A stretch of 64,000 nt of DNA from an uncultured Candidatus Altimarinota bacterium (GCA_938036655.1 CALHQS010000038.1:1024-65023), one strand, 5' to 3'. Positions 6,732 through 51,576 are shown, counted from the stretch's first letter. The notes: a model not told the origin generated them from the sequence alone. Translations and numbers: made by a program.

Positions 6732-7463
6732 ATGGGTTTGGATAATTACGAATGACTTGATGATTCGCCCCAGCTTGCGAGTGGTCGTGAAGAATCTCAA
6801 GAACAATATCAAGAAAAATCTCGAAAAGCACAGATTCAGCTCAAAAAAATTCAAAAAGATGAAAAATCTGCACAAAACGATAATCAGAAATTATTTCTCA
6901 TTTTGTCGAGGTTTATTCAGGATGCTTATTATGAGTCACTCATTGGTGATGTTTCGGCTCTTTTGAGTGCAGGATTTTCGTCACGCGGAATTATTGCATT
7001 TATAGCGCTTTTTTATCCAGATGCGACTTTTTATGTCGCGGATTCGCTTGAAAGAAAAGAAAAAATGAAATTACTACTTTGATTACCTCGTTATGAAGAA
7101 AAAATCGAATTTCACGAGCAAAATATTTTCCCAGAAATTCGTGCCTGGATTTCAGAATGGATTCTTATGACAGAACTTTTTTTGACGGATAAATCAGCGT
7201 CTGTTCTTATGAACAAAAAAACTTTTGAAATGATGCGAGGTGAACATTCAGCGCTTATTGAACGCATTTTATCAAATTTTTTAATCTTTTTCTTTGGGAT
7301 GCGAAATGTGATTTTGCCCGAACATAAGGCGCGTGAGTTTGCAAAATTTATCAAAAAAAATATTTCCGACAAACTCGAAAAATATTTTGCTATTCAAGAA
7401 AAAAATATCCATGAACTCATCACGGATATTGAATTTAATTCCGATGATTTGTTTGGTTCGTAA
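6732..7463 (+). CDS. hypothetical protein (243 aa, 2 in-frame TGA)
   Basis: The ATG lies 3 nt after the glyA stop. The frame is continuous with track ORF 7167-7463 when TGA is a sense codon. I recognise no domain. Confidence 0.5.
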
Positions 7464-11718: not shown

Positions 11719-11886
11719 TTTCGTCTTTATGGCGACTTGGTAGTCTCTCCTGACCAGAGAGATCACAAAAAATCGTATAATGATACTTCAGTATTATTAT
11801 ACATGATAACTTCTGACCAAAGTTATCAAAACTTTCCTGCAAAATCATTTGATTTTTGCATTTTATTTTCTAACCATACTATTGTT

Positions 11887-22368: not shown

Positions 22369-24867
22369 ATGACAAGTTCTTATCAAATCAATTCTTTGCG
22401 CGATTTTTTTGAAAAAGGTGAAGAAATAACGAAAAAACCTTTGAGTGATTCGGTGATTACAGAATATGAAACACTGGTAAAATCGGCTGAAAATTTTATT
22501 AAAAACCTCGAAATAAATAGTCCAGAGCGACCTCAGGCAGAAAAAGCGCTTCAAACATTGCGTGAAAGTTTTGTAAAATTACAAGAAACAAGCAATGCTA
22601 ATAAACAAAAAATTCAGGAAGAACTTCGTACTGAGTGGGAAACATTGAGAAACTCTGTTGTTGAGATTACACCAACTCATTCATCTCAAAATGAGTGAAC
22701 ATCACAAGAAGAGGATTCTCAGGAAAAAAATTCTGAATCTCAAGAAGAATCTCAAGTAAAGCCTGCTGAATATAAACGAGAACCAATCACTGCAAAAGTA
22801 CAAGAAGAATTGAATGAATTCCAAAAGGAGGCATTCGAGGCTTTTAAAAAACAAACACTCGGTGAAAATGGAAAAATGGATGAACTTTCTTTCCGTCGCG
22901 GAATTGAATTTTTGTCGGAACTTTCTACTTTTTCAAACATTGAAGTGGAAAAAGGAAAATTTGACTGGTTGGACACAAAAGAAAAAGAAATGCTTCTCAA
23001 ACAAATGCCCGCTGTTCAGGGAATTATCGGTTCTATTTTTGTAGAACAATTTTTCCGTGCTGGATATGAATTTGGTTTCAATGCTGATAATACTGTGATT
23101 GTAAAACCAAAAAATGCTGGTCAACAAACAAAAGCTCGTGAACTAGAAACGCAGCTGAATAATCAAATTGCTCGCAATCCTCATTTTGCAAATTCGATTA
23201 AAGCCGGTCTTCTCTATAACAATCAAGATTTGCTCACATACTTGCGAATGAATGCTACTTCTGACGGAAAAGAAATTTCTGAAGATGCACAGAAACCAGA
23301 AAATTTTATAAAATTTTTGCAAGGGCGTAATACTGAGTCTGCCAAGGCTATTTTGGCGAGCCGAAATTTTTTCAAAGATTTGGATTGGGAAGGACATTTG
23401 CATGCTGCCAGTTATGTTCCAAGTTTTTCGAAAAAATTATCTGTGATAATGGATGATCCTGAAACTCAGCAGGCGATTGCTCGGAATTTTACTCAGAATC
23501 AGAGTGCTCCGAATCGTGCAACAGTGCTCTTTAATACAATGACTGCCCCAGATGATTCTCTCAATAAACCGCTGCCAACTTTGAAAGAAAATATTGATAA
23601 ACATGGATATGCTGGAGGAATGCTCACACATACAGGAATGCTTTGGGGTCGCGGATTTAAAACTTTATTTTCTTCGCCAGAAGCAGGAACTTTGACTATT
23701 GCGGCAATGATTATTTTACCATTTGTTGTTGGATTCAAAAATGCAATGGGAATTTTTGCGGGAACACCGTTGGCACTTGGGCTCATTGATAGTTTTACTA
23801 ACGATAAAAAGCCAGAGGAAGGATCACCAGAAGAAGAAAATGATCCGCCAACCACTTCTGCTGATCAAATGGGTATCAAGGATCTTGTTCCTGAGGAACG
23901 CAGAGCCCTCATTGAATCCACTTACCCAAAAGAAGAAGTTGAGCCAATGATTAAGGCTACGGCGGCTCTTCAGACTGAAAAAGTGGGATATCTTCGCGAT
24001 TATATCGGAGGAAATGCTGATGCAAAAATTTCTGATAATGCGAAGCAATCCCTTGAAACTGAAAATAATAAAGAATTAGCAAAAAAACATATTGAAACAC
24101 TTCGGAATAAGGAAATTGAGCTTGCAAAACAATCTGGTCAGTTGACTGAAGAAGGATTAAAAGTATATACACAACTACTTGACGATATGCGACTTTCGCA
24201 GCTGGAATGGTATTCTGTTAGTTCTATTGAAGAAAGAACCAAAACAATCAATGCATATATGCAGAAAAAAAGTGAACCAAATACCTCGAAAAATTCAGAT
24301 AGCTCAAATGATGCAAAAAAACAACAAAGCTCTTGATTGTCAGCATGGGAATATGGATTTTATGGTGCCATGACACTTATCGCAGTAAAGTTGATGGGCG
24401 GGGGACCACTCTTGAAAGGAGCATGGTGAGTAACGAAATGGGTTGTGGTAAAAGGAGGTTATGGTAAAGTCTTAAAACCAGCCGGTAAAGCAATTTTTGA
24501 TAAAGGAAAAACAGCTTTAGATAAGGTGACAGGGGGACGTAAACATATTATCACTTTGAAGACTGGAGAACAGGTAACACTTTCGCGTGCAGCATATCAG
24601 GACCATCAGGATCTAAAAAAAATGCTTCAAGGGGGGAAGATAGATGCTAATGATATACCAGAAATTAATAAAAAAATGGAAAATGTATTTAAAGAAGCTC
24701 TTCAAGACGCAAATTTTAAAAAGAAAGTTCTTGCAGAATACGGAACTTCTACTTTGGATGAGGCAAAATTTTTGGATGATATGAAGTATCAAACTTCAGC
24801 GAGAGGTCTAATGAAATCTCATAATATGTCAATGAGAAAGAGGATTCTTGAAATCCTACTTCACTAA
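22369..24867 (+). CDS. giant hypothetical membrane-associated protein A (832 aa, table 25)
   Basis: Track ORFs 22369-22698, 22810-24336 and 24445-24867 share one frame and are joined by 3 TGAs with no TAA or TAG between them. It has a coiled-coil N-terminus and hydrophobic segments (GTLTIAAMIILPFVVGF...GTPLALGLI; YGFYGAMTLIAVKLMGGG). A Gly/Lys-rich stretch and a C-terminal module of about 110 aa follow. I recognise no family. Confidence 0.7.
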
Positions 24868-24876
24868 TTATTATTT

Positions 24877-27051
24877 ATGTTTAAAAAACCAATAACATCT
24901 CGTGAATCTGATTCTAATAATACTTGGCAAGAATTACAAGATACTATTGGAGAAATTCGATATGAATGACTGGAAAGTACGGATTTTAGAAACTTTACTC
25001 GAGAAGAATCTATTCAAGAATTGAAGTCAATTATTTGGGAATTTTTTGAGATGACGAGTATTTTTAGACAAAACCCTGAAAAGTGAAAAAAAATTGCAGA
25101 AGATTTTTTCAACTATATTTTACAATTTCCATGATTTGATATTGATCAGATTCAATCAATTGGAATTAATCAGGCTCGAATGAAAATCGACCTGAAAGAT
25201 TCTACACAAATTGTGATTGACCTCGCGAATGCTTGGGATGAAATTGTAGTGACGCCAGAAAAACAAAAAATCCAGACTGATACTCGTGAACAAACACAAA
25301 AACTCAGAGAAACGGTAGATAAAGATTCATTTTTTGGTGGAAATATTATTTTTGAATATGGTGCAATAGGTGTTACGACCGGGCTCGCAACGAAAAAAAT
25401 TATTGATATCAGGAAAACAAATCAGGCAGCCAAAGAGTGATTATTTCAGTTGAATTCTTTGCTTGTGAAAATGGATGATGGAAAAACTATGCGCATTCAT
25501 TTGAGTGATGAACGGCCAATTATTGGAACCCACAAGGATTTTCAAGATTCAGTTGGTCGTATATTGGAGCGCGCCGAATTACAACTTGACCCTACAACTC
25601 GAAAAGTATTTTTCCCTGCAAAAAAAATGCTTCAAGCACTTGATGAAGACTTTTGAAATCTTACATATGAAAAGTACTTGAAAGAGAATGAAAATATTCA
25701 AGAAAAAATGACTCGTGAAGAATTTGAAAAATTTCGTCAGGAAAAAATCATCGAAAATCGTCAGATGATTCGTGATTTTGATGCAGGGAAAATTACATCT
25801 ACAAAAATCTTAAAATCTGTCGGTCATATTGCGATGCACGCAGCAATGCTCCCACTTTTTGCTGTACAGTATCACCGCCATCAAACAGCTGCCAATATGG
25901 TTGAGGCTGTTGGGGAAGAGGTGGCATTTGCTATCGGTGCCAAAGTAGTAGGAAAAGCTGCATCAAAGGCTCCTGGTGTATGGAAAGCTCCAGCAGTGAT
26001 TGTGGGAAGTCTTGCTGGAGGTATTGGTGCTGTGTGGGCTGGGCATACATTTTCTGAAAAAATGCTTGATGCAAAGCGTCATAAATGGCTCACATTTCAA
26101 AAATCAAATTATGAAAATAAACGCTCAAGACTTGGACATATTGTATTTGGGATGGGCGTAAATGAAGGACTTGGGTATCTCAATGATGGACTCAGATATA
26201 TTACAGAAGATTCAGAAATGGGTGGCTTGGATATAGGAATTGACAGAATGTCATTTAATAACCCGTTTACTGGAAAACATCTCTTTACCACTCCAGAGAT
26301 GTCTATTTTTCAAGATAAGGTCACCCTTGGTACTGAGCCTTGGACTTGGATGCAAACCGCAGCGAATCGCGATGTGAATCGTTGGAACGAGTATGTAGAA
26401 CGCTACAAAACACTTCTAAAAACTAATATTAATATTCTATTGGGTGAATATAATCGTGGCGAAGGAATTTTCTCGGATACGGACAAAATAAAAGAAAAGG
26501 GTAGCAAAGAAAAATTACTTGAATCAGAACTCTATGAAGTACTCAGAGGTGGCGAATCTGGTATATCTTTTGTGCGAGAAATGGCCACGCTGGTGAATGT
26601 GATTTTACAAGAAGTAAAAAACTGAACATCAGCCGGTAGTCGAGGAATTAATGATTACATTGACTTTACTGTGAATCAAATGAAAATTGATAGAGGATTA
26701 TATTTGTATCATCGAAAAATATCGCTCAATGAGGAATATGTGAGACTTATATCTTCTACTGAACGTTTCTCGAATCTGACACCAGAACTTACAGAATATA
26801 TCAAAAAAATCCCAGAACGAATTTATTTGCAGCAGGAAATTTACCAAAATAATACCGAAAAAAACATGTATGAATCTATGCTGAAAAATAAAAATACAAT
26901 AGAACGAACTGATGAAAATAGAAAAAAAATACAAGTAACTGTGGGAAATGAATTTGCGATTTGGCTTGACGAGATTGTCGCTTGGAATCAAGAAAAATAT
27001 TTTCTTGAGCAAATAGAGGCTGGCAATACGAAAGGTTTTGAATGGAAATAA
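24877..27051 (+). CDS. giant hypothetical protein B (724 aa, table 25)
   Basis: Five pieces in one frame (24877-25179 plus track ORFs 25180, 25450, 25678 and 26671) are joined by 6 TGAs. It starts 9 nt after A. It has a central hydrophobic, Gly/Ala-rich region (AFAIGAKVVGKAASKAPGVWKAPAVIVGSLAGGIGAVWAG). I recognise no family. Confidence 0.7.
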
Positions 27052-27067
27052 TTTTTAAAAATTTTTT

Positions 27068-27958
27068 ATGACAAATATTGAAAAAAAAGTGGAATTTAAA
27101 GATATTCCACAAAGCGTAAAAAACGCACTTCCTGACTCAAATGAATACCAAAAATTTGAAGCAGCTCGTAATAAACTCCAATCGCAGACTGATATTTTGC
27201 AAAAAAATACAGAAGATCGTCTGACTGCTCTCAAAAATGAATTGCCACCAGATATCCGAGCTAAAGTCGAAAATCTTTCCGATTTGGCTGATGCTGTTGA
27301 GGACAAAAACCTGTTTGAGCAAGCGAGGGATAAATACAATGAAGTCAAAGGTGATATAGCTGCTCTTCCTGGAAAAGCTCTAGACTCAGCGGAGGCTGTT
27401 TATGATCAAATTATTGGTTCGGATGTTACGATCAAGACTGATAAAGATTCATTTGCTGGACTCAAAACCGCTTTTGATACTTTCAAAGAAAAAGGTTTTA
27501 TCGAAGGAATGAAAGAAATCGGAAGTCAGCTCAAAGATTTTTTTGATAAAATTATTTCGATTTTTAAAGGTGGATTTGGTTGGGCGACTTTTGAAAAAAT
27601 TGGAGATTTATTTTCTGGAACAATTGATACTGGGAAAAAAATTTCTGATGTTATCAAGTGGGCGAAAGATACAATTGGTTTGTCATTTTCAGAGGGCGCA
27701 CCTTGGCGAGATGCGCTGGAAGACCGAAAACTGCTCGCGCTTCCGATTGAAAAAATTCGTGCTGGCATGTCGGTAGAAAATATTTCAAAAGAATTGGGAA
27801 TCAAACTTTCGAATAGCGATGCAAAAACATTTTTGGACAAATTTTTTAAGCCAGAAAATTTTGAAAAAATTATTGCTGAATATAAAACTAAAACCAATAC
27901 TTCCACAGTTGACGAAAAAATCGTGACGCTCAAAGATTTGGTTCTCAATCTCGGATAA
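27068..27958 (+). CDS. hypothetical protein C (296 aa)
   Basis: Intact ORF 16 nt after B. It is helical and charged, and I recognise no family. Confidence 0.6.
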   Translation: MTNIEKKVEFKDIPQSVKNALPDSNEYQKFEAARNKLQSQTDILQKNTEDRLTALKNELPPDIRAKVENLSDLADAVEDKNLFEQARDKYNEVKGDIAALPGKALDSAEAVYDQIIGSDVTIKTDKDSFAGLKTAFDTFKEKGFIEGMKEIGSQLKDFFDKIISIFKGGFGWATFEKIGDLFSGTIDTGKKISDVIKWAKDTIGLSFSEGAPWRDALEDRKLLALPIEKIRAGMSVENISKELGIKLSNSDAKTFLDKFFKPENFEKIIAEYKTKTNTSTVDEKIVTLKDLVLNLG

Positions 27959-28523: not shown

Positions 28524-28547
28524 AAAAAATCCCAATTGGGATTTTTT
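28524..28547. terminator. bidirectional terminator between ssb and gene D
   Basis: AAAAAATCCCAATTGGGATTTTTT. The TAA stop of D (28546-28548) abuts it. Confidence 0.75.
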
Positions 28548-31140
28548 ATTGATTTGGAGTTGCTGGCTCTCCAGCTGTCTGTGTAGATAAGTTTCCTGGT
28601 GTGAGTGTTTCTATGCCTGGGTTATCAGAATTTTTTGGTACTCAAGCAGAATTTCATTCTGATACAAACTCTTTTCCAACTACTATCGAGCCTTCATCTC
28701 ATGATTGACCTTCGTTTTGTTCTGTATCGCTTGTTGATTGTTTGATTGTTTCTAAATAGTGTTTAAAAGCAGTTGTTGTATTTGGTCCAAGCATACCATC
28801 TTGTCATTTTGCTGTATCTGAAGATTTAATACCAATGAGTTCTTGTAAATTTTTGACTGCAAGGGGTGTCGGGTTGTGGATAGCGGTTTGGATAATATTT
28901 TTTACTTCTTGATCAATATAGTCTGCATATTGACCCTGAATATTATTCCATTCCGTTACTACTTGCTTCCATTGAGTTGTCTGAATCCATCGCTTAGAAA
29001 TAGATTCTCGGTAATCAGTAGTTGCTATTTTTCCATTGATTTTTCGTGTTAAATCAAGATTGACGGTAGGAGTTTCTGAGAATTGAGTGCTTCATTCATT
29101 CGGTGCTTGACCATCTCATTCTTTTGATGTTTGAGGAATTTTTGGATTAGGTTTTTGCTCGACTGACTGAAAAACTTCCTTTTCCCAATTTGGGTCAATG
29201 GTGGAGATATCGAATTTTTCATTAATTCGTGTTATAAGAGTTGTTATGGCTGCAGCAGGAAGCGCAGATTGTTTCAATGTAGTTCGTAGTGCACCAACCG
29301 TTTCAGTAATCTTTGAATTCACCGTGTTAAGCTCTTTTTCGAGATTTGCAATATTTTCTTTGATTTCAGGTGATTTTTTTGATTGACGAAGTGCTTTTCT
29401 TTCTTCTTGAAGTGCTTTGAGGATTTCTACTTTTTCCTCACGAAGAACCTTGAGTTCATTTGATTTTTTTGCAGAGTTTTGTCTCCATTTATCCCATGTT
29501 TCTCGGATTTTACCTGGATTCTGCGCTTCCGCTTTTGGCGCTTCCGCTTTTGGCGCTTCCGCTCCTTTCGTATTAGAGTTAGCCTTCTCTAATCTTTCTT
29601 CGAGTTTTGTTTTATTTTCCGAAAGGTTTTTATTTTTAGTATCCAGTTGATCCATCTTTTTTGTAAGTTGCTCATTTTGTCGCTCAAGTTTTTTAAGATT
29701 TTGTTCTAGTTGTGCCTTTTCACTTTCAAGGTATTTTAAATTTTCATTTGCTTCTGGCTTCACTCTAGATTGTTCTAATGCCATCTGTTCTTCCTTTAAC
29801 TTACTGATTCTTTCTTGACGAATCTTTTCAACAGTAGCATTTTTCTTTGGAACTTCACTTTCTAATTGTTTAAGCTGCTGTGAAATTTCTTCATGCTTGT
29901 GATAATTAATTTTTTTATTAATATTTTCAAGATTACCACTTCCTTCACTTATACGATTAAAGTTGGAAATTCTTTCAGCTTCAAGTGCTTTTTTAGCATT
30001 ATTATTTTGTGTAATGTAATCATCAATATTGTTAATACTTTCTTTGGTATTCACAACTCGTTTTTTGGTATAGTGTTCCTGAACATTATTTTTTATCTTT
30101 CATGCAGTATTTCGAACTCGGTTAATACTATTAGAGGCGGTATTAGTTACTGCCTCTTTTACTTTTCCTGTACCCTGTGTGATTTTTTCACCAACTGCAT
30201 TTTTCAAATTATTTCCAGTTTCACTAACTTTTTTAAGATTAGACTGAACAGCTTTTCCAACGGTACTATCACCGATTACTGAACCCACTTTTCGTGTGAC
30301 AGGATTATTTACTACCGGATTTACTATTTTTTTTGCAATATTAGTAGGAGCGTTAACTGACCCTACAATAGCTTTTCCACTTCATTCTACTATTTTGCCA
30401 GCTCACTGTAGTGCTTTTCCGCCGACTCTTCCAGCCATTGATGTGCTTTCTGCACTTATTTGTGCTCACTTCTTTACCGCGAGGCCACCACCCTTTATTA
30501 GAATTTTCCCGAAGGTTTTTGCAATACCAGCGATACCAGTGATTGCCAAGATGATATCAACACTGGCTCGCCCTTGTTCATAAGGATTTCCTTCAGTCAA
30601 ATCTTTCAATGTCTGTGCGAGTTGATTTTTTACTTGTTCCCAGCTCAGATTCTTAAGCGCTTCAAATACCTGGCTTCGGAAATTTGAATTTGAAATGGCA
30701 AGCTCTACAAACTCTGGCATTGCCAAAATAGAATCCAATCCACCCATAAAAAATGCTATACCAGGATGACTTTTTGAAGGATTATCTTTATCAAAATCTA
30801 CCGCCCAATGAACCGCCCTTCGTAGCGAGTCTATAATAAGTGAGTCGGTCTGCACTCTTACTTGTTCAATAATGTCTTGCTTCTTTATGCTTACTATTAC
30901 AATAAGATCAGAGAGTGTTTGTTTGGTCTTGAGGATATTTTGTAACATTTCCTTGTATATATCCATTGCATTGTCGTTCATCTTTTTGCTTAGAATATCA
31001 CGAGAGATTTCTCGTAGATGATTGTCAACAATAGATTGAAATGCTCATATTTCTCCGTCATTATATCATTCATCTTTCATGGTTTGTGATACCATTTGAT
31101 TGATTTCTTGTTGCTTTGCACTGAGTACTGATTTTTCCAT
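28546..31140 (-). CDS. giant hypothetical protein D (864 aa, table 25) with a Gly-rich repeat region, a long coiled coil, an AEAPK repeat and a C-terminal peptidoglycan-binding-like motif
   Basis: Manual translation from ATG 31140 to TAA 28546 is open when TGA is a sense codon (12 TGAs by my count). It joins track ORFs 30466-30981, 30100-30288 and 29116-30054. A hydrophobic segment (VDIILAITGIAGIAKTFGKIL) is followed by GKxxxG-type repeats. About 250 aa of heptad-like K/E/L/N-rich sequence comes next. The C-terminal DGMLGPNTTTAFKHYLE resembles the PG_binding_1 D-G-x-x-G-x-x-T motif. Confidence 0.7.
29523..29563. repeat. 15-bp tandem repeat x2.7 (GCGCTTCCGCTTTTG) encoding (AEAPK)n inside gene D
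   Basis: Read directly from the sequence. Confidence 0.9.
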
Positions 31141-35336: not shown

Positions 35337-36281
35337 ATGAATCTTTATGATCCACTTCTAGAAGCTGAAAAATCCGTTCTAGAAACTCCAAAAACACAAA
35401 CAAAAATCAAAATTTCTCGCGCGAAAATTCTTTTCACAACACGACCAAAAAGCTTTGTTCGTCAGCTTTTTTCGAGTGCAAAATTTTTTGTAACTTATAT
35501 TGCGCTTTCAACGACGATTTTTTCGGTTATGATGGGTGCGATGAATTTTAACGCGTACAGCGCGCGTGTGGCTCATTGGTTCAATCCTGATGCGTACGCT
35601 CATGCAAGCGAACAAATGCACGGAATTCTCAATACTTCTCACGCAGAAATTGCGGGTGCGAAACAAACGGAAGAAGATATTGAACAGCGTGCGATTATCG
35701 AAGAAAAAATTGCGGCACAAAATCCAGAAATGGTGTATTCTCGAAAATATGCTTCAGAAAATTTGCTTTCCAATGTGCCTTTACAATCAGCAGAAAAGGC
35801 ATCATTTTCGGTAGCACCACAGGAAAATCGCGTTGTGATTCCTCGTCTTGCGAAAAATATTCCGCTTATTGATGTGTATCATGACAAAAATACGCCATTT
35901 GAAGAAATGCACGAAATTTTCAAACAGGAACTCGTGAAAGGAATTGTGCGCTATCCAGGAACGGCTCGTCCAGGAGAAAAAGGAAATGCCTTTATTTTTG
36001 GGCATTCTTCCAATGTTCCTTGGATCAAAAGTGATTACAATGATGTTTTTGCGTTGCTCGATACGCTCGAAAACGGTGACGAAATTATTGTATATTATAA
36101 TCAGAAAAAATTTGTCTACAAAGTGACTGATCGTACAACCGTAAAACCTGGCGACACAGAAGTTTTGAACGCGCGTGATCCAAATAAAAAAGAAATTTCT
36201 CTCATGACTTGTTGGCCAATTGGAACAACACTGGAACGACTTATTATTTTTGGAGAATTGGTCGAAGAATCTGCTTCATAA
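35337..36281 (+). CDS. sortase family transpeptidase with an N-terminal TM anchor
   Basis: Catalytic His (AFIFGHSS), Cys (ISLMTCWP, TLxTC-like) and Arg (TLERLIIFG) are in canonical order. Confidence 0.8.
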   Translation: MNLYDPLLEAEKSVLETPKTQTKIKISRAKILFTTRPKSFVRQLFSSAKFFVTYIALSTTIFSVMMGAMNFNAYSARVAHWFNPDAYAHASEQMHGILNTSHAEIAGAKQTEEDIEQRAIIEEKIAAQNPEMVYSRKYASENLLSNVPLQSAEKASFSVAPQENRVVIPRLAKNIPLIDVYHDKNTPFEEMHEIFKQELVKGIVRYPGTARPGEKGNAFIFGHSSNVPWIKSDYNDVFALLDTLENGDEIIVYYNQKKFVYKVTDRTTVKPGDTEVLNARDPNKKEISLMTCWPIGTTLERLIIFGELVEESAS

Positions 36282-36290
36282 TCAAAAAAT

Positions 36291-36572
36291 ATGAACTATA
36301 CTGGAATTTTTACATACGATACATCCGTATTGCTTACAGCGCCAAATAGTCTCGTTGTTGCGATTATTGTGATTATTTTGTCGGCAATTTTCGTACTTGC
36401 GGCTCGATATTTTCTATTGGCCTGTGCTGGAATGTTTCTCATTTATCAAGACAGAAAAAAATTTGCAAATCGTAAAAAAACGCTTTCTGATCTCGTTTTA
36501 ATGAAGGATATTCAGACAGAACTTGAAAAAGAAATTGAACAAGCAACGCTCAAAGCGGCTTTTCAAAATTAA
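36291..36572 (+). CDS. small membrane protein (93 aa), hypothetical
   Basis: The ORF starts 9 nt after the sortase gene and has two hydrophobic helices. Confidence 0.5.
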   Translation: MNYTGIFTYDTSVLLTAPNSLVVAIIVIILSAIFVLAARYFLLACAGMFLIYQDRKKFANRKKTLSDLVLMKDIQTELEKEIEQATLKAAFQN

Positions 36573-36629: not shown

Positions 36630-37193
36630 ATGAAAACAGCTCTACAAGCAAAAGTTGGGACAGTTCTCAAAATTGATGGAGATATTTTTCTCGTGATAAA
36701 GCACGAAATGCGTCGTGGTGGACGCGGTGCAACTAACGTTACAATGCGCCTTAAAAATCTTATCCAGAATACAACTTCTGACCGCGTAATGGATGGTGAA
36801 GAAAAATTGGATGATGTAATTCTTGAACGCTCAAAGGCAGAATTTTTGTACCAGTCTGGTGATGAATTTGCTTTTATGAATCAGGATACATATGAAACAG
36901 TAGAACTTCACGCGGACGATATTGGTGACGCGGCAAATTATTTGAAAGAAGGTTTGATCGTTGATCTCCAGACTTTTGAAGGAAAATTTGTTGGTATTAT
37001 TCTTCCAATTCGCGTAACACTTCAGATTACTGAATGTGAGCCAACAGTTGCTGGAAACACAGCCGACGGAAAGGTAGAAAAGTGGGCAACTCTTGAAACT
37101 GGTCTTCAAGTGAAAGTTCCAGGATTTGTAAACCAGGACGACTTCATCATCGTTTCAACAGAAGATGGTTCATACCTTGAACGCGCAAAATAA
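36630..37193 (+). CDS. efp: elongation factor P (Arg at the loop-tip position)
   Basis: 187 aa, colinear with EF-P (GDIFLVIKHEMRRGGRGATNVTMRLKNL...; C-terminal LETGLQVKVPGFV). The PGKG loop is replaced by GGRG. Confidence 0.9.
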   Translation: MKTALQAKVGTVLKIDGDIFLVIKHEMRRGGRGATNVTMRLKNLIQNTTSDRVMDGEEKLDDVILERSKAEFLYQSGDEFAFMNQDTYETVELHADDIGDAANYLKEGLIVDLQTFEGKFVGIILPIRVTLQITECEPTVAGNTADGKVEKWATLETGLQVKVPGFVNQDDFIIVSTEDGSYLERAK

Positions 37194-37203
37194 TTTGACA
37201 AAT

Positions 37204-37228
37204 AAAAATCCCAAACGGGATTTTTTTG
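37204..37228. terminator. bidirectional terminator between efp and the T4SS-like operon
   Basis: AAAAATCCCAAACGGGATTTTTTT. Confidence 0.75.
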
Positions 37229-37239
37229 ATGCGATTTTT

Positions 37240-38223
37240 TTATCGTTTGTTAGCGTCTTGTGCGTTGTATGCTTTGAGATATGTCTGCGTTGATGCGTTC
37301 ATATAAGTGGAAAGATTATTCCTGAGGTGAATGTAATCGTCATAAATAATCGCGAGCAATAGATGTGCTGGATACGCTTTTTCCATATCCATAAAAGTTC
37401 GAATGGCACGAGGAAGGGTCGAATCGGCACGACGAATTTCTGTTTCAAGTGCGGTTGCATAATTATTGTATGATTTGATCCAAGCTTCAGAATCACGAGC
37501 GATATTTGTTCCACTTCCGGTTCCGATGGCTTGTTCTACGCTTTCTACATACGCACGATCAGATTCGAGAGTTGTGTCAAGATATGACAGATAATATCGA
37601 TAGTGACAATATTGCCGTGTCGCAGAATTGACGATTTCTTGCATTACAGCCGTTTGATTAGCATCAGAATTATTGCACTGCAAATTATCTTTTTCGCGCT
37701 CCAATCGTGTTTGTTCTTTATTGAGTTGTGTCGTGATTTCAGAATTGGCTCCATTGAGCGTGCTTTCAACGGTTTCACGAAGCCCCTTCAGAATGCGCAA
37801 ACGAGAAGTGACAATCGCACACGAAAACAATGAATTCATCGTACTACGGTACTGCAATCGCGCTACTTCGAGCGTTTTAAATCCAGAAAAATCTCCAATT
37901 CGACTCATATCAAGTTCGCTTGCGAGTCGATTTTTTTCTTCTGTAGAAAGATTGGAAAGATTCTGTGTACGCGAAATCTGATGATTCACGGCGCTGGCTT
38001 TGAGCTCAGGATATTGAGGAACTGGGCGAATCGCATTATTTTTTCCCCAATATCGATCTGTACTATCACAATAGGATTTTGCGCCATCAAGATACGACTG
38101 ATAGCTTTTAAAATCAGGATTTTGTTCGCTCGGAATAATTTCGGCGTGCGCTGGGTTTTGCGTGAAAAAAATTCCAAAAATCATTCCAAGCGCCATCATC
38201 GATGTTCAAATATTTTTTTTCAT
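37240..38223 (-). CDS. secreted hypothetical protein (327 aa, table 25), last gene of the T4SS-like operon
   Basis: ATG 38223 lies 4 nt after the upstream stop. It has the signal peptide MKKNI-G-TSMMALGMIFGIFFTQNPAHA/EII, is Cys-containing and helical, and matches no family I recognise. Confidence 0.65.
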
Positions 38224-38227
38224 AAAT

Positions 38228-40657
38228 TTAAGAAATGCGATAAATAATATCTTTTTCCACAAATTCTCGTTCGCGCGCATATCGAAGACGAGAAAATTCT
38301 TTGAGCGCTTCACCAATTTTTGGGTCTCATTTTTCAAGCCACGGACGCGGAACATCCAGTGAAAAGCCTTGACTTGGCTGACCATCCACCGACAAGCGGA
38401 GTGCTGCCTGGAATTTGTCCATATTCATAAAATCGTGATTGGAATAGGCTGGTGCGAATTGTTCTTCAAGCAATTTAGCATCTTCTGGCCCGATTTTGTA
38501 ACTCATCATCGAACCAACATTTCCGAAAATCGCATCTTTGAGGTTGAGGCTTGATTTGGTGAGCGCGTCAGATTTTTGTAATTGCCCCAAATATTGATGT
38601 GCAATAATCAGTCCAAGACGATATTTTCGCGCTTCAGAAAGAATCGATTCAATCGAATCCGTCACATAATTTTGGAATTCGTCAATGTACAAGAAAAAAT
38701 CTTTTCGCTCGCTTGCGGGCATTTGTTGGCGCTTCATAGCTGCCATTTGAATTTTAGAAACGAGGATAAGACCGATAAGACTCGAATTGATGTCTCCCAA
38801 AACTCCTTTGGAAAGTGTTGCCAAAAGAATTTTTTGCGTATTCATCACATCAGTAATATCAAACGCTGATTTTGTCTGACCGATGATATTTCGCATCAGC
38901 GTGTTGGTGATAAATGGACCAAATTTGGCAGCAAAAAATGGAATCATTTCTGCTTTTTCTCGATCACCCATCGCTGCGTATGTCGTTTTCCACCAAGTTT
39001 TTACGATTGGATTTTTGATCGTTTGTATGCGTTCGCGCTGGAAATTTTCATCCGTAAAAAGTTTGATCAGCTCAATAAGCGTTCCGCCTTCTGGATAATC
39101 CATGAGCGCCAAACATCCATTTCGAAAATAATCCTGGATTCGCGGACCGAAAATTTCTGGCCCAAAAATTTTAATCATAATGCTCGTCGCCTCGCCAACG
39201 GCCATTTGTTTTTCATCATCAGTATCAGCTTCCAAAAGATTGAGTCCCATCGGACGACTCTGATCGGCTGGGTCGAAAAAAATCAAATCTTCCGCGCGAG
39301 TTTTTGGGATAAAATCCAAAAGTCCTGTCGCAAAATCTCCGTGCGGATCGAGCACTGCGAGCCCGCGACCATTTCGCAAATCTTGGCGCGCCATCACCGA
39401 CAAAATCGAAGATTTTCCCGTACCAGTCTGCCCAATCACATAAAAATGACGGAAACGATCTTCGTTCGACAAATAAATTTTTCGGCGCTCACCACGGAAA
39501 ATATTATCCCCAAGGTACAGTCATTCGTGCGGAATATTTGTCGGAGCCTTCACGACACGAAAATGTTGCCATTTGATTTCTGGTTGTTTGTTATATTTGG
39601 AATGCGGAAAATGAAAAAGCGTCGCAATTTCCTCAATATTGAGCAAAAAATTTTTCTGCCACCATGCAAATTGTCGCAAAATAAAATATTGAATCAAAAC
39701 CGAAAGCGATTTGTGACGCATCGGTAGAAAGCGATTGTAGGCGGGCGACGCAAACTGCGAAAATGATGAAATAATATTGCGAAGCTCGGCGTTTGCCACC
39801 ATTTCATCATCGGCAGTTACAATAATTCGCACCATCACGAGAAAACCGGTTTTTTTCACTTTTTCTTTCATGAGACCTTCGTCGTCGATTGGATCTTTTT
39901 CGTCGATTTCAGGCTCGTCTTTTTTATTTTTTTCTTCTGGATCTTGGAAAAAAATTTCTAAAAATCCACGAATCCACACAAGTGGATTGAGCGAAAAATA
40001 TCGTCGTTTTCCAGGACTTTTCTCTTCTTTTCGAATCATTTTTTTGATGCGATTTTGCCAGCCGTCATCCTCAGGCTTGAGCAAAATCTGAATCGTTGCA
40101 GAAGTATTTTCACTGAGCCGACCAAGCGCCGACAAAATAGCGTTCATACTATCTGATTCGAGCTTTTGATACGTTCGAATTGGGAATTCGTCGCCTTTTT
40201 TGAGAATCATCGCCTCGCCCAACACGGATTTTCTGTTTTCAAAAATATTGATTTCGCTTGTTTCTTCGATGAGACAATCCGGATAAAAACCAATAATTTG
40301 CTTTTCAACGAGCAATTTGGATTTGCGCGGTACCACGATATAAAAATAAATTTCGTTCGCGTGCGCCGTATATTCGAAAGAAATATATTCCTGCCCCAGA
40401 AGCCAGCCCAAAAAATTCCCGCGATAGAGCGATTTGAGATTGGACAAAAGTTGCTCCATGAGAGAAATTTGTTCTTTAAAATCTCGAATTGTTTCCTTTT
40501 TTTCATCGCTGTCGCTGTCTTTTCGTGCCATCACTACACGCAAAAAAGCCATTTCCTTCGAACGGCGTTTTGCGATATTTTTGCGATATTGCCACCAGAA
40601 AAAAGTCAGGAGAACAATTGTCGCAACGATGATGAGAAAAATTTTCCCAAGTTGCAT
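38228..40657 (-). CDS. VirD4/TraD-type coupling-protein-like P-loop ATPase (809 aa, table 25) with an N-terminal TM anchor and a large N-domain
   Basis: Track ORFs 39521-40657 and 38327-39472 are in frame, joined by TGA and extended across a second TGA to TAA 38228. It has an N-terminal TM (IFLIIVATIVLLTFFWW), Walker A HFYVIGQTGTGKSS, LAVLDPHGDF, Walker B FFLYIDEFQNY and IIAHQYLGQL. This fits the HerA/FtsK-like T4SS ATPase fold. Confidence 0.7.
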
Positions 40658-40666
40658 ATTTGTGAA

Positions 40667-41671
40667 TTAGAATGTGATTCCTTCGAGAATGAAAAATCTA
40701 AAAATTGCGTGACTCGCGACGAGCAAAACGAGCCCAATCACGATATAAATAATAATTTTTTTCGCGCGAGAAATTTTTTCTTCGTCGCCACCAGAAATAA
40801 ACAAAAGCCAACCCGCATAAATCGCCATCAAAATACAAAAAATCGTCAAAAATGTATTGAAATATTTGATAATATTGGCAAAAAGTTCTACCGCACCTTC
40901 AAATCTGGCCTCAGAATTGCTAGTACATGGCGTTTTCGCCAAATCCCAAACATGACCGCTCATTTGCTCACATTTTGGAACGCCGCTGTACAAAAGTGAA
41001 ACGATTCGATGAGGAATTTGAATCAAAATAAATCCCACCAATGCAAAAATCAGCGTATTTTTCCCTTTTCCAAATTTTTCTTCGTCGCCTGACCCTGTGA
41101 CGATAATATAAAATGCGTAAATCATCATCGCGAGGAATATAAATCCTGTAAAATAATATACCAGCCCCACGAGTGGTTCCAAAATATTATTCCAAAATTC
41201 CCACCCCCATTCAGCATCAATAATAACCGAAGTTCCATTGCTTGGATTTTTGAGAAGCGTCGCCCAAATAGAATACGCCATTTGAAGCAAAATCGCACCC
41301 GCCGCGGTCCAGGCAATATTGTATTTCCATTTTTTTACATCATCATCACTTCCGTCTGATGTGAACAATTTTATCACGCCGATAATCAAAAAAATTACCG
41401 CAATGAGCAACATAGCATTTTTGATTCCTTGCGCAATATTAAAAAATGTCGCACTAAGCGCATCATTTGCATTTGTGCTATCTGATTTGATAAAATAGCC
41501 TTCACCAACATCTTTTGTGAATTCATTAATTTGTTTGTGTTCCGTTCCTTCCGTTTTGATATTATTGGAAAGATTATTGATGACGTCGTTGTTGTCTTGT
41601 GCATGCGCGATAGGCATCATCGTGACACAAAAACTTGCCAGCAAAATGAGAAAAGTTTTTAAAAATTTCAT
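40667..41671 (-). CDS. signal-peptide protein built from three tandem VirB2/TrbC-like pilin hairpins (334 aa)
   Basis: Signal peptide MKFLKTFLILLASFCVTMMPIAHA. It then has three repeats of TM - short acidic turn - basic patch - TM. These are ...IGVIKLFTSDGSDDDVKKWKYNIAWTAAGAILL, ...YIIVTGSGDEEKFGKGKNTLIFALVGFILI and ...GWLLFISGGDEEKISRAKKIIIYIVIGLVLL. Confidence 0.6.
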   Translation of the reverse strand: MKFLKTFLILLASFCVTMMPIAHAQDNNDVINNLSNNIKTEGTEHKQINEFTKDVGEGYFIKSDSTNANDALSATFFNIAQGIKNAMLLIAVIFLIIGVIKLFTSDGSDDDVKKWKYNIAWTAAGAILLQMAYSIWATLLKNPSNGTSVIIDAEWGWEFWNNILEPLVGLVYYFTGFIFLAMMIYAFYIIVTGSGDEEKFGKGKNTLIFALVGFILIQIPHRIVSLLYSGVPKCEQMSGHVWDLAKTPCTSNSEARFEGAVELFANIIKYFNTFLTIFCILMAIYAGWLLFISGGDEEKISRAKKIIIYIVIGLVLLVASHAIFRFFILEGITF

Positions 41672-41691
41672 ACAAAAAAATTATCTCAAAT

Positions 41692-41720
41692 AGTATAGCA
41701 ATTCTTGCTCAAAAAAGCAA
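41692..41720 (-). promoter_or_regulatory. promoter TTGCTT-17-TATACT of the T4SS-like operon
   Basis: The reverse complement was read directly. It lies 20 nt upstream of ATG 41671. Confidence 0.5.
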
Positions 41721-46422: not shown

Positions 46423-47151
46423 CTATCCAAAATTATAGTCATCAACATTTCCACGCATCATAGTTTCTGCACCAATTCGTGGATTATAATAATTGTATAA
46501 AAGCTTGATAAGTTCGTCTTTTTTGAGTTCTTCCGCACGAAGTCCGATACTTTCGAGCGACATTTTAATGGTGCTGAGTCGCTCAGAATTCCCTTTATGA
46601 AGCTTCTGAACGCGACTTCGGTTGGCGCGAATATCGGCTACTGATTCGGTTTGAGAAATCGCCGACCAAAAACTTCGAAAAATCCCAAGAAAATCAGTTT
46701 TTCGAACACTTTCATTGTTTTCAAAATCGTATGGCACCACGATATAAAATTCTTTTTTCATAATTTGTGCCAAATCAATCAGTGTCAAAAGAAAATCGAT
46801 ATATTTGTATGTTTGTTCTTGGAGAAGCGGATTTTCTTGTTTGAGTGCGAGATTTTTGAGTTTGTTGATATAACTTTCGATATCCACGCGAAGCGAGCGA
46901 ATAATGATCTGGATTGGAAAATTGAGTGCATTCAAAAAACGCTGATAGCTCATCAAAATTGCGTCTTGCTCCTCAGTACTTTTGAGATTAAAATTGAGCG
47001 CATGAACCTTGAGAACCATACGAGACGAGCCGTCTTTCATCACGATGAGATTGTCGCGAATCTCAGAAAAAGGCATATAGCGCTGTACGCTCATATCCTG
47101 ATTTGGTTTTTTCCCACTTTTCACGGATTTTGTAGTTTTTTCTGCAATCAT
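46423..47151 (-). CDS. stand-alone VirB4/TrbE N-terminal-domain-like protein (242 aa)
   Basis: YMPFSEIRDNLIVMKDGSSRMVLKVHALNFNLKSTEEQDAILMSYQRFLNALNFPIQIIIRS follows the pattern of the N-domain of Gram-positive VirB4-like ATPases. It ends at a genuine TAG with no P-loop domain. Confidence 0.5.
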   Translation of the reverse strand: MIAEKTTKSVKSGKKPNQDMSVQRYMPFSEIRDNLIVMKDGSSRMVLKVHALNFNLKSTEEQDAILMSYQRFLNALNFPIQIIIRSLRVDIESYINKLKNLALKQENPLLQEQTYKYIDFLLTLIDLAQIMKKEFYIVVPYDFENNESVRKTDFLGIFRSFWSAISQTESVADIRANRSRVQKLHKGNSERLSTIKMSLESIGLRAEELKKDELIKLLYNYYNPRIGAETMMRGNVDDYNFG

Positions 47152-47154
47152 ATT

Positions 47155-47577
47155 TTAGAGATTTTTGAGTTTTTCCGCGAAATCTTCGTTGTTCGCGATT
47201 GAGGAAGTAAAGCTTTCTTTGGAAGTTGTTTGCACGATTTTTTCGTTTGAACTTGAAATGTGGCCAATTTCAAGTTCGGTATAACTATCCGTTCACTGCG
47301 ACCATGGACGGGCTTTTCCATTGAGCGACATTCGCAAAAAGTTGAGCGTTAGCGGTAAAAATGTCATTTCTGCGATTCGAACAAGCGCGATTCCAATACC
47401 CATTCCTGCCACAATAATTGCTGGAACGAGCGCGATTCCACCAATTCTTGATTCTAAAAATTGAAAGAGCGCGTAGGCGATTCCACCAAACACCATCATA
47501 ATCCCGAGCTGCCGCAAAGAAAGCCCAAGAACGATAGTATCTTCATTTTCGATTTGAATAGGAATTTTGTACTGCAT
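47155..47577 (-). CDS. PrgI/VirB3-like small membrane protein (140 aa, table 25)
   Basis: It starts MQYKIPIQIENEDTIVLGLSLRQLGIMMVFGG, followed by two TM helices, like PrgI-family proteins. One TGA is read through to TAA 47155. The promoter lies inside the longer track ORF. Confidence 0.55.
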
Positions 47578-50520: not shown

Positions 50521-51075
50521 ATGTCTCATTTTCTTTTTACTGTTCTTTTTCCTTATTCTATTCTTGTCATTCTTTTTCCTTTTACAACCCTGTGGTACGA
50601 ATTTTTCTGAATCTTGCATCCAAAATTTGGCTGGACACATATTTCTCAAAATTTTAGATTTGAAATGTTTGAATTATATTCCGTACCATTTTTTGTTTCC
50701 GCATTTTATACAGCTTTATTTTCTGCTTCAGGTCTAACTTTTATTGGGGATAGTTCTCTTTTTGGCACCTCAAAAATGATATTTACCGTTTCTGTTATTT
50801 TTGGTGTTCTGCTTGACTTCCTCATCCTTTCTTCTATCGCTTCCAAGAATAAAAAATTTTTACAAGAAAATCCTGAAAAACTTCCAAAAAATAAAATTTT
50901 TATTATTTTCTTCACCTTTTGGAGAATCTTTTTGCCAGATATTTTCGTTGCCAGCTCGTTGTCAGCTCATTATTCTCGAATGACTTTGAACAAAAAACAA
51001 ATTTTCCTGATTTCATTTTGAGTGCAACTAATTCGTATTTCAATGCTTGTAGTAATGTCTTTATTGTTTAAATAA
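50521..51075 (+). CDS. small polytopic membrane protein, paralog 1 (184 aa, table 25)
   Basis: ATG 50521 is in frame with track ORF 50614-51021 across 2 TGAs. Its C-terminal half is clearly homologous at DNA level to 51082-51576. Confidence 0.55.
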
Positions 51076-51081
51076 TTCTAT

Positions 51082-51576
51082 ATGCATATTTTTCAAAAAA
51101 TTTCTGATTTTTGGCTTTGGATTATTTGACTGAAAGTGTTTGATTATCATAAAGGAATAGAATGGAACTTGGCTTCATATTGGGGTTGAGATTATATCTT
51201 GTTTTCCTTGTGGACTATTTTTTCGAGTACTTCAGGAATGCTTATTCTTGACGAAAAAGGATTTATCGAGTTACTTGTTATTGCTGCAATATTTTGAATC
51301 TTCCTCGACTTCCTCATCCTGTCTCGCATTTCTTCCAAAAATAAAAAATTTTTACAAAACAATCCTGAAAAAACTGCAAAAAATTCTCATTTTATAACCT
51401 TTTTCATTTTCTGGAGAATATTTTTGCCAGATATTTTTATAGTAAGCTCGTTATTAGCACGCTATTTCCGAATGAGCTTAAACAAAAAACAAATTTTGCT
51501 GATTTCACTTTGCGCTCAGAGTGTTCGTATCGCAATTCTTGCAATCATATATTTTGGTATTTATATACATTTTTAA
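51082..51576 (+). CDS. small polytopic membrane protein, paralog 2 (164 aa, table 25)
   Basis: ATG 51082, 3 in-frame TGAs. It shares ...KNKKFLQ(E/N)NPEK...FWRIFLPDIF...NKKQI(F/L)LIS with paralog 1. Confidence 0.55.

What the first reader, a model, noticed from the sequence alone, without database searches (positions are those of the whole stretch)
37240..41720. Three-gene T4SS-like operon: triple-VirB2 pilin fusion, 809-aa VirD4/TraD-like ATPase and a secreted ORFan
A single promoter (TTGCTT-17-TATACT) and a bidirectional terminator delimit three genes with gaps of 9 and 4 nt.

The ATPase has a single N-terminal TM and an uncharacterised domain of about 390 aa. Its FtsK/HerA-type motor carries GQTGTGKSS and YIDEFQ. 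The full gene appears only after joining two track ORFs and a 33-codon tail across UGAs.

There is no relaxase, VirB6, VirB8 or VirB4 motor in the operon. This is not a standard conjugation module. It may be a minimal envelope-spanning DNA or protein uptake or delivery device of the kind suspected in CPR episymbionts.
Basis: partly seen in the sequence, partly recalled or inferred. Interest (0 to 1): 0.7.

Follow-up and report, generated by a model that had tools for sequence, protein, structure and literature searches.

The report
Fused triple pilin plus coupling-ATPase operon
A chromosomal three-gene operon of an ultra-small, UGA-recoded bacterium encodes three secretion-system pilins fused into one protein, a coupling-protein-type ATPase and a lineage-specific secreted protein; it is a local variant of the type IV secretion system already described in these bacteria, not a new stand-alone machine.

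Summary
On the minus strand lie g1 (41671-40667, 334 aa), g2 (40657-38228, 809 aa, read through two UGA) and g3 (38223-37240, 327 aa), with gaps of 9 and 4 nt. UGA means Gly here: codon 379 of g2 is TGA in the window and GGA in strains about 98% identical.

- **g1** is a signal peptide plus three T4SS_pilin (VirB2-like) domains.
- **g2** belongs to the coupling-protein (VirD4/TrwB) family, not VirB4. It carries the DUF8128 N-domain, and the family is very large across Patescibacteria. It aligns end to end with a Bacillus plasmid ATPase sitting beside a relaxase-like gene and a Tcp-type T4SS.
- **g3** is a Cys-containing helical secreted protein with 38 homologues and no fold match.

The "minimal device" reading is not supported. 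A VirB3 (PrgI) gene and a TrsD-like gene lie 5 kb away. Published work (PMC12102498, PMC10633639) describes a dispersed, relaxase-less, pilin-bearing T4SS in Patescibacteria. A ComEC channel is also in the window.

What appears undescribed is the covalent triple-pilin fusion and its conserved linkage to the coupling ATPase in this lineage (GTDB class JAEDAM01 for a 71%-identical relative). Verdict: a new variant of a known kind, of moderate interest.

The parts
41692..41720 (-). Candidate promoter TTGCTT-17-TATACT, with TGC immediately before the -10 hexamer (extended -10). It lies in the divergent fmt/g1 intergenic region.
   Evidence: Single occurrence in the window, none in shuffles. Sequence read. 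Not listed by the generic sigma-70 scan because the -35 matches only 3 of 6. Function not shown.
40667..41671 (-). g1: 334-aa Sec-signal protein with three tandem VirB2-like T4SS_pilin hairpin domains (about residues 70-141, 158-231, 256-332). Two conserved Cys lie in the R2-R3 linker.
   Evidence: Pfam PF18895 at 72.4 bits in 3 stretches; NCBIfam NF045849 at 51.6 bits in 3 stretches. Repeat alignment. A three-domain architecture is kept in relatives L005, L085, L086 and L087. It is the only pilin-like ORF in the window.
38228..40657 (-). g2: 809-aa membrane-anchored coupling-protein-family ATPase. Layout: one TM helix (about residues 3-34), DUF8128 alpha/beta N-domain (about 35-375), P-loop domain with a helical insertion (about 390-775; Walker A 409-417, Walker B 654-662), and a conserved helical tail (777-809).
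   Evidence: PF26449, PF01935, PF10412. Profile against PDB: TrwB 1e-7. AF2 model of the 82%-identical P0056, pLDDT 84.9. Foldseek. hhalign to a Bacillus plasmid ATPase, E 1.3e-43 over columns 89-806.
39521..39523 (-). In-frame UGA (codon 379 of g2), read as Gly.
   Evidence: The codon is GGA in L001-L004, which are about 98% identical. Nearly invariant Gly column.
38327..38329 (-). In-frame UGA (codon 777 of g2), read as Gly. It is followed by a 32-residue conserved tail (residues 778-809).
   Evidence: The tail is conserved across the family and modelled as helices 779-793 and 797-808.
37240..38223 (-). g3: 327-aa secreted protein with a signal peptide, a UGA at codon 6, four invariant Cys, an all-helical fold and a very conserved C-terminal helix. 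It is restricted to this lineage.
   Evidence: No Pfam or NCBIfam hit. 38 homologues only. Alignment. AF2 pLDDT 83.1. No PDB fold match, best E 0.84. Found downstream of the ATPase in L005, L006, L085 and L087.
37204..37225 (.). Hairpin AAAAAAUCCC-GUUU-GGGAUUUUU between convergent g3 and efp; a candidate bidirectional intrinsic terminator.
   Evidence: The 61-nt stretch 37190-37250 containing it folds at -12.2 kcal/mol, z = -2.87. Missed by the generic scan. Function not shown.
47155..47577 (-). PrgI-family (VirB3-like) small membrane protein, 5 kb from the operon.
   Evidence: Pfam PF12666 at 36.3 bits against a cutoff of 27. Precomputed PrgI on the same gene in L001-L004.
46423..47151 (-). 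242-aa TraC-like/TrsD-like protein (resembles the VirB4 N-terminus), immediately downstream of PrgI.
   Evidence: Precomputed PF26593 TraC-like. Weak BLASTP match of residues 26-99 to residues 3-76 of a plasmid TcpF-position ATPase, E 0.016. The local Pfam copy lacks this model.

Best explanation
The operon is a lineage-specific module of the chromosomal, relaxase-less type IV secretion system already described in Patescibacteria, which derives from the monoderm MPF-FATA type.

Shown:
- g1 is a Sec-signal protein with six hydrophobic helices forming three VirB2-type hairpins in one chain.
- g2 is a membrane-anchored P-loop ATPase of the coupling-protein (VirD4/TrwB) family. All catalytic motifs are intact and it has a DUF8128 N-domain.
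- g3 is a secreted, Cys-containing helical protein.
- The three genes are tightly packed and keep their order in relatives down to about 69% ATPase identity.

Inferred:
- The genes are co-transcribed.
- The g1 hairpins insert with both ends outside and the charged GDEEK loops inside, as VirB2 does. The two-Cys linker lying outside fits this.
- g2 forms a hexamer at the membrane and powers either substrate delivery to, or pilin handling by, a channel. That channel would be built with the VirB3 and TrsD-like genes 5 kb away and a VirB4 encoded elsewhere.
- g3 is an extracellular accessory part (tip, adhesin or wall-spanning piece) or a substrate.
- The system serves contact with a host bacterium, not conjugation.
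For: - Domain assignments.
- g2 is T4CP-like and not VirB4. The PDB profile search hits TrwB and DotL only. TrwB superposes at TM 0.62-0.67 (normalised to the target), rmsd about 5-6 A. No VirB4 Pfam family appears at E <= 1.
- g2 is homologous over its full length, N-domain included, to a B. subtilis plasmid ATPase. That gene lies beside a replication-relaxation gene and TcpC/D/E plus a TcpF-position ATPase. hhalign found no match to that TcpF-position ATPase, although this single-sequence comparison was probably too insensitive to count as evidence.
- Synteny fmt | pilin x3 - ATPase - g3 is kept in L005, L085 and L087. L086 has the pilin and ATPase only.
- At the same divergence the ATPase is 69-73% identical, the pilin 44-48% and g3 39-50%, as expected for exposed parts.
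- PrgI and a TrsD-like gene are in the window.
- Literature: Patescibacteria T4SS with VirB2-like pilins, scattered genes and abundant T4CP homologues far from virB4; the system is essential in a Saccharibacterium.
Against: - No VirB4, VirB6 or VirB8 was found in the 64 kb. Its presence in this genome was not tested.
- One related genome (GCA_002747975.1, ATPase 71% identical) is scored VirB4-negative in Table S1 of PMC12102498.
- In Southlakia epibionticum the T4CP homologue was not essential while the other T4SS genes were. The family may therefore work outside the T4SS.
- In 80 loci from reference genomes the ATPase usually stands alone.
- No evidence shows that a fused pilin can polymerise.
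Confidence: 0.6

Rival explanations
1. Self-contained minimal machine. In this lineage the DUF8128 coupling-type ATPase has taken over the VirB4 role. It would extract or assemble the fused pilin, and the six-helix pilin fusion would itself be the membrane platform in place of VirB6. g1-g3 would then work without VirB4.
For: - The pilin gene is linked to this ATPase, not to VirB4, across the lineage.
- The best Foldseek E-values are full-length alignments to TrwK/VirB4, about 880 columns at 2e-14. This suggests a VirB4-like two-domain build.
- VirB6 is reported absent in the class Gracilibacteria.
- One related genome is scored VirB4-negative.
Against: - TM to TrwK is only about 0.3.
- Sequence profiles place g2 with TrwB and DotL, not VirB4.
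- VirB3 and TrsD genes, which normally partner VirB4, are retained 5 kb away.
- Most JAEDAM01 genomes seen in Table S1, including a complete one, are scored VirB4-positive.
Confidence: 0.13
2. The ATPase has been exapted for a job unrelated to type IV secretion, such as DNA handling at the membrane. Its adjacency to the pilin gene in this lineage would then have no functional meaning.
For: - The family is huge and nearly ubiquitous: 4,711 clusters at E <= 1e-30.
- It is usually not next to T4SS genes.
- The published survey raises exaptation, because the T4CP homologue was not essential in S. epibionticum.
Against: - Gaps are 9-28 nt in four of five relatives. The 117-nt gap in L085 reflects a truncated ATPase start call.
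- The order is kept from 99% down to about 69% ATPase identity.
- The nearest non-CPR homologue sits in a plasmid transfer region beside a relaxase-like gene.
Confidence: 0.17
3. Decaying remnant of an integrated conjugative element.
For: T4SS-type genes without a relaxase, scattered in the chromosome.
Against: - All three ORFs are intact once UGA is read as Gly.
- The catalytic residues are invariant.
- The same housekeeping flanks (fmt, HIT, ABC-2) recur in distant relatives.
- No integrase was seen among the annotated neighbours, and GC shows no break (2-kb windows 0.38-0.41 across the operon, flanks 0.36-0.39; window-wide range 0.29-0.41).
Confidence: 0.03

Closest known systems
Patescibacteria T4SS (MPF-FATA-derived; Wang et al. 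2023, PMC10633639; Quinonero-Coronel et al. 2025, PMC12102498)
   Same: Chromosomal and without a relaxase. It has VirB2-like PF18895 pilins, which are unusual for monoderms, plus PrgI/VirB3 and TrsD. T4CP homologues are encoded away from virB4, and the genes are dispersed in the class Gracilibacteria.
   Different: The published cases have arrays of 2-11 separate pilin genes, mostly near virB4. Here three pilin domains are fused in one ORF and linked to the T4CP-type ATPase. A lineage-specific secreted protein follows. No VirB4 lies within 64 kb.
TrwB/VirD4 coupling proteins (R388 TrwB, PDB 1E9R; DotL; Cag-beta)
   Same: P-loop domain with a helical insertion, Walker A and B motifs, and an N-terminal membrane anchor. 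The profile hits TrwB at 1e-7. TM to TrwB (normalised to the target) is 0.62-0.67.
   Different: g2 has one TM helix instead of two. It has an extra alpha/beta N-domain of about 340 aa (DUF8128) and a conserved C-terminal helical tail. No relaxase partner is present.
DUF87/DUF8128 ATPase of Bacillus subtilis plasmids (e.g. WP_144625398.1 on NZ_OX419581.1)
   Same: Homologous end to end, N-domain and tail included: hhalign probability 100, E 1.3e-43, 666 aligned columns.
   Different: The plasmid gene is 913 aa and about 24% identical. It lies beside a replication-relaxation gene and a Tcp-type transfer cluster, which is a conjugation context.
VirB4 (R388 TrwK, PDB 7O42/8RTD)
   Same: Similar length and a two-domain layout. 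The best Foldseek E-values (2e-14) come from alignments spanning the whole chain.
   Different: TM is only about 0.3. No VirB4 sequence family is matched. g2 is membrane-anchored by its own TM helix and is not adjacent to VirB3.

Membership tests
T4SS_pilin / VirB2-like pilins (PF18895) | Profile score above the curated cutoff | tested here: met
   72.4 bits against 26.6, in three stretches. NCBIfam NF045849 scores 51.6 against 40. PF04956 TrbC scores only 20.6 against 27.9.
T4SS_pilin / VirB2-like pilins (PF18895) | Signal peptide followed by a two-helix hydrophobic hairpin with a short charged cytoplasmic loop | tested here: met
   N-terminal MKFLKTFLILLASFCVTMMPIAHA is read from the sequence. 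Three hairpins carry DDDVKKWK or GDEEK loops. A crude hydropathy count gives 8 hydrophobic segments on the near-identical orthologue. No dedicated signal-peptide predictor was run.
T4SS_pilin / VirB2-like pilins (PF18895) | Small single-domain subunit (about 70-120 aa) able to polymerise | tested here: not met
   g1 is 334 aa with three domains in one chain, and this is conserved in relatives. Polymerisation and post-translational cleavage are not testable here.
Type IV coupling protein (VirD4/TrwB) | P-loop domain homologous to TrwB, with Walker A and B motifs | tested here: met
   PF10412 scores 24.0 against 20.5 over residues 398-695. The profile hits TrwB at 9.8e-8 and DotL at 2.4e-5. Foldseek to TrwB gives E about 4e-12 and TM 0.62-0.67 normalised to the target. 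G412, G414, K415, D659 and E660 are invariant.
Type IV coupling protein (VirD4/TrwB) | All-alpha domain inserted between Walker A and Walker B | tested here: met
   Residues 480-606 of the model are helices only. They lie inside the TrwB_AAD_bind match.
Type IV coupling protein (VirD4/TrwB) | Genetic or functional link to a relaxase and transferred DNA | tested here: not met
   No relaxase was found among the annotated genes of the window. A plasmid homologue does sit next to a replication-relaxation gene.
VirB4 | Match to VirB4 sequence families (CagE_TrbE_VirB, P-loop_TraG, AAA_10) | tested here: not met
   None is listed at E <= 1. No VirB4 chain appears in the PDB profile search. hhalign found no match to a plasmid TcpF-position ATPase, but that single-sequence test was insensitive.
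VirB4 | N-domain plus C-terminal ATPase fold | tested here: inconclusive
   Full-length Foldseek alignments to TrwK have E 2.4e-14 over about 880 columns but TM about 0.3. No domain-level comparison was possible.
Patescibacteria T4SS (MPF-FATA-derived) | VirB4 of the Patescibacteria clade present in the genome | not tested
   None lies in the 64-kb window. Table S1 of PMC12102498 scores most JAEDAM01 genomes seen as positive and one relative as negative.
Patescibacteria T4SS (MPF-FATA-derived) | VirB3/PrgI, TrsD and VirB2-like pilin genes, on the chromosome, without a relaxase | tested here: met
   PrgI at 36.3 bits. TraC-like PF26593 precomputed. Pilin. Housekeeping flanks.
VirB5-type pilus-tip protein (for g3) | Helical fold resembling solved VirB5 structures | tested here: not met
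   The model has pLDDT 83. No PDB match reaches E <= 0.001, the best is E 0.84 at TM <= 0.2, and no VirB5 is among the 50 listed matches.

The most novel reading that the evidence does not exclude
In this UGA-recoded lineage, a coupling-protein-type ATPase with a VirB4-like N-domain, a covalently triplicated VirB2 pilin and one secreted helical protein form a VirB4- and VirB6-independent minimal pilus or translocon. This would be the simplest T4SS-derived machine known.
Probability: 0.12. Interest if true: 0.8.

Novelty: new variant of a known kind. Interest (0 to 1): 0.42.

Why it matters
The T4SS of Patescibacteria is the first shown to be essential for its owner's growth on a host, and its mechanism is unknown. 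This locus gives two concrete handles.

- **A natural pilin fusion.** Three pilin hairpins are joined in one chain. This constrains how the subunits can pack or be processed.
- **A conserved operon link.** The pilin gene is tied to the widespread DUF8128 coupling-type ATPase, whose role in these bacteria is unclear. In one Saccharibacterium it was dispensable.

If the link is functional, it assigns that large ATPase family a role in pilus or channel biology. It also flags a full-length homologue on Bacillus plasmids that sits in the coupling-protein position.

A practical point: public gene calls for this locus are truncated because the standard genetic code was used.

Tried and rejected
- **g2 N-domain against the neighbouring TrsD-like protein.** hhalign gave only an 11-column FYIVVP match, probability 1.5. 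No relationship was shown.
- **g2 family against a plasmid TcpF-position ATPase.** hhalign gave probability 0.7. Single-sequence templates are too insensitive to settle N-domain homology.
- **g3 as VirB5, VirB8 or an adhesin.** Pfam and NCBIfam gave nothing. Foldseek against the PDB gave nothing significant.
- **Pilin and g3 next to the ATPase elsewhere.** An iterated pilin HMM and a g3 HMM were run over 80 loci from reference genomes. Only the closest relatives have these genes beside the ATPase. Other multi-TM neighbours looked like unrelated membrane proteins and were not pursued.
- **Metagenome scan with g1.** It returned only near-identical strains plus one 49% relative.
- **Supplementary Table S3 of PMC12102498.** The stored copy is cut before the JAEDAM01 rows. 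The published per-gene calls for relatives could not be read.
- **Window g2 sequence as a direct query.** That search and the structure model therefore used P0056, which is 82% identical.
- **Conjugative-element remnant.** Rejected on conserved housekeeping synteny and intact genes.


Full report
**1. Is it there?**

Yes. Three genes lie on the minus strand.
- g1 is 41671-40667, 334 aa.
- g2 is 40657-38228, 809 aa.
- g3 is 38223-37240, 327 aa.
- The gaps are 9 and 4 nt.

g2 is one reading frame only if the UGA codons at 39523-39521 and 38329-38327 are sense codons. Four lines of evidence support that.
- Every long ORF in the window, genuine genes and chance ORFs alike, ends in TAA or TAG. In-frame TGA is common in housekeeping genes.
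- Codon 379 of g2 is TGA here and GGA in four strains about 98% identical.
- Residue 379 lies in a nearly invariant Gly column of the family.
- The 32 residues after the second UGA are conserved across the family and fold as two confident helices.

So UGA encodes Gly (genetic code 25). Close relatives are labelled Gracilibacteria by NCBI. The genome holding the 71%-identical g2 is placed in GTDB class JAEDAM01.

It has a TGn extension before the -10 hexamer but a weak -35 hexamer, and the generic scan did not list it. A hairpin flanked by an A-tract and a U-tract lies at 37225-37204 between g3 and the convergent efp gene; the 61-nt stretch that contains it folds at -12.2 kcal/mol, z = -2.9. 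Both are plausible signals, and neither is proven.

**2. What the proteins are**

*g1.* It has a signal peptide and three T4SS_pilin domains.
- Pfam scores 72.4 bits against a cutoff of 26.6.
- NCBIfam's pilin-like conjugal transfer family scores 51.6 against 40.
- Both match in three stretches.

The repeats are only 17-20% identical to each other. Orthologues in four relatives keep all three repeats and are 44-48% identical overall. The fusion is therefore old and maintained. Each repeat has two hydrophobic helices around a charged loop (GDEEK-type). Two conserved Cys sit in the R2-R3 linker. That fits the VirB2 topology, with the linkers outside the cell (inference).

*g2.* The layout is one TM helix, a DUF8128 N-domain, a P-loop domain and a helical tail. 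DUF8128 is PF26449, taken from precomputed hits because it is absent from the local Pfam copy. The P-loop domain matches DUF87 and TrwB_AAD_bind above their cutoffs.

Evidence on which ATPase family it belongs to:
- A profile of 40 diverse members hits TrwB (1e-7), DotL (2e-5) and then HerA-like helicases in the PDB. It hits no VirB4.
- The AlphaFold2 model is of the 82%-identical homologue P0056. Its pLDDT is 84.9.
- The model superposes on TrwB at TM 0.62-0.67 (normalised to the target), rmsd about 5-6 A.
- The best Foldseek E-values (2e-14) are full-length alignments to TrwK/VirB4, but at TM about 0.3. This suggests, without proving, a VirB4-like two-domain build.
- tblastn against plasmids found a B. 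subtilis plasmid ATPase that aligns with the family from column 89 to 806 (probability 100, E 1.3e-43). It lies beside a replication-relaxation gene and a TcpC/D/E cluster with a TcpF-position ATPase.
- hhalign found no match to that TcpF-position ATPase, but this single-sequence test was probably too insensitive to count.

g2 is therefore a coupling-protein-type ATPase with an extra N-domain.

The family is very large. It has 4,711 clusters at E <= 1e-30 and spans many Patescibacteria groups. NCBI names its members [quoted passage not shown] or "DUF87 domain-containing protein".

*g3.* It has a signal peptide, four invariant Cys and a very conserved C-terminal helix. Only 38 homologues were found. 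The confident helical model (pLDDT 83) has no significant PDB match.

**3. Context**

- The operon is flanked by fmt, HIT and an ABC-2 permease on one side and by efp and a sortase on the other.
- The arrangement fmt | pilin x3 - ATPase - g3 recurs in relatives with 69-73% ATPase identity. One of these relatives lacks g3.
- In 80 loci from reference genomes the ATPase otherwise stands alone.
- Five kb away, on the same strand, lie a PrgI/VirB3 gene (36.3 bits) and a TraC-like/TrsD-like gene.
- No other true Walker-A protein except SufC is in the window, so there is no VirB4 here.
- A ComEC gene is at 7435-8973.

**4. Comparison with what is known**

- Wang et al. 2023 found an essential T4SS with a pilin array in a Saccharibacterium. 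It lacked a recognisable coupling protein and relaxase.
- Quinonero-Coronel et al. 2025 surveyed 3,035 Patescibacteria genomes. Most have a VirB4 of a dedicated clade nested within the MPF-FATA class, plus TrsD and VirB3.
- They found VirB2-like pilins in 1,948 assemblies, as arrays of separate genes, mostly near virB4. They counted 5,713 T4CP homologues, mostly far from virB4.
- In the class Gracilibacteria, TrsD and VirB3 are not near virB4 and VirB6 is absent.
- Their Table S1 scores most JAEDAM01 genomes seen as VirB4-positive. One relative of this window is scored negative.

The kind of system is therefore known. I found no description of fused pilins, of a pilin-T4CP operon or of g3. The only held papers that mention PF18895 are that survey and a structure-clustering preprint, and none mentions DUF8128.

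**5. Mechanism**

*Most likely (confidence 0.6).* The three genes are co-transcribed. The triple pilin is inserted by Sec with its loops in the cytoplasm. The g2 hexamer at the membrane energises substrate delivery or pilin handling. It works with VirB3, TrsD and a VirB4 encoded elsewhere. g3 is an exposed accessory part or a substrate. The system serves contact with a host bacterium rather than conjugation or DNA uptake. Only the domain identities, gene order and conservation are shown; the rest is inferred.

*Rivals.*
- A self-contained machine in which g2 replaces VirB4 and g1 replaces VirB6 (0.13).
- An ATPase exapted to a non-T4SS role, with meaningless adjacency (0.17).
- A decaying mobile element (0.03).

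**6. Verdict**

This is a new variant of a known kind, with interest 0.42.

Noticed in passing
window 7435-8973 (-): ComEC-type competence channel (Pfam Competence at 140.5 bits, DUF4131 at 36.4 bits). No metallo-beta-lactamase nuclease domain was listed. A dedicated DNA-uptake channel therefore exists in the same window.
   Followed up: partly
window 11803-14802 (+): 999-aa protein with an N-terminal S-layer homology (SLH) domain at 45.9 bits. It is probably a surface-layer or wall-anchored protein.
   Followed up: partly
window 22369-27958 (+) and 28546-31140 (-): Three adjacent large ORFs (832, 724 and 296 aa) and a convergent 864-aa ORF rich in lysine and glutamate with an AEAPK repeat. 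The 864-aa ORF has 12 in-frame UGA. None has a Pfam hit, and some have hydrophobic segments. They are possible surface or effector proteins.
   Followed up: partly
window 39521-39523; L001-L004 codon 379 of the ATPase gene: A TGA/GGA polymorphism occurs at one codon between strains about 98% identical. It is a direct natural illustration that UGA is read as Gly in this organism.
   Followed up: yes
L001-L004 gene calls: Public gene calls for this species used the standard code. The ATPase is cut to 776 aa, fmt is split in two, and PrgI and RNase II are shortened. Database annotations of this lineage are systematically truncated.
   Followed up: partly
L088 (NZ_OX419581.1 39108-41849): A B. subtilis 63.6-kb plasmid typed 'non-mobilizable' carries a 913-aa ATPase whose N-domain aligns with DUF8128. 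It lies next to a replication-relaxation gene and a Tcp-like transfer cluster. It may be an unrecognised coupling-protein type. 156 Bacillus plasmid records matched g2.
   Followed up: partly
window 50521-51576 (+): Two adjacent paralogous small membrane proteins (184 and 164 aa) share a SKNKKFLQxNPEK motif. They have no significant Pfam hit.
   Followed up: no
window 35337-36572 (+): A sortase gene is followed by a 93-aa single-TM ORF, just upstream of efp and next to the operon's terminator. It points to wall-anchored surface proteins in this organism.
   Followed up: no
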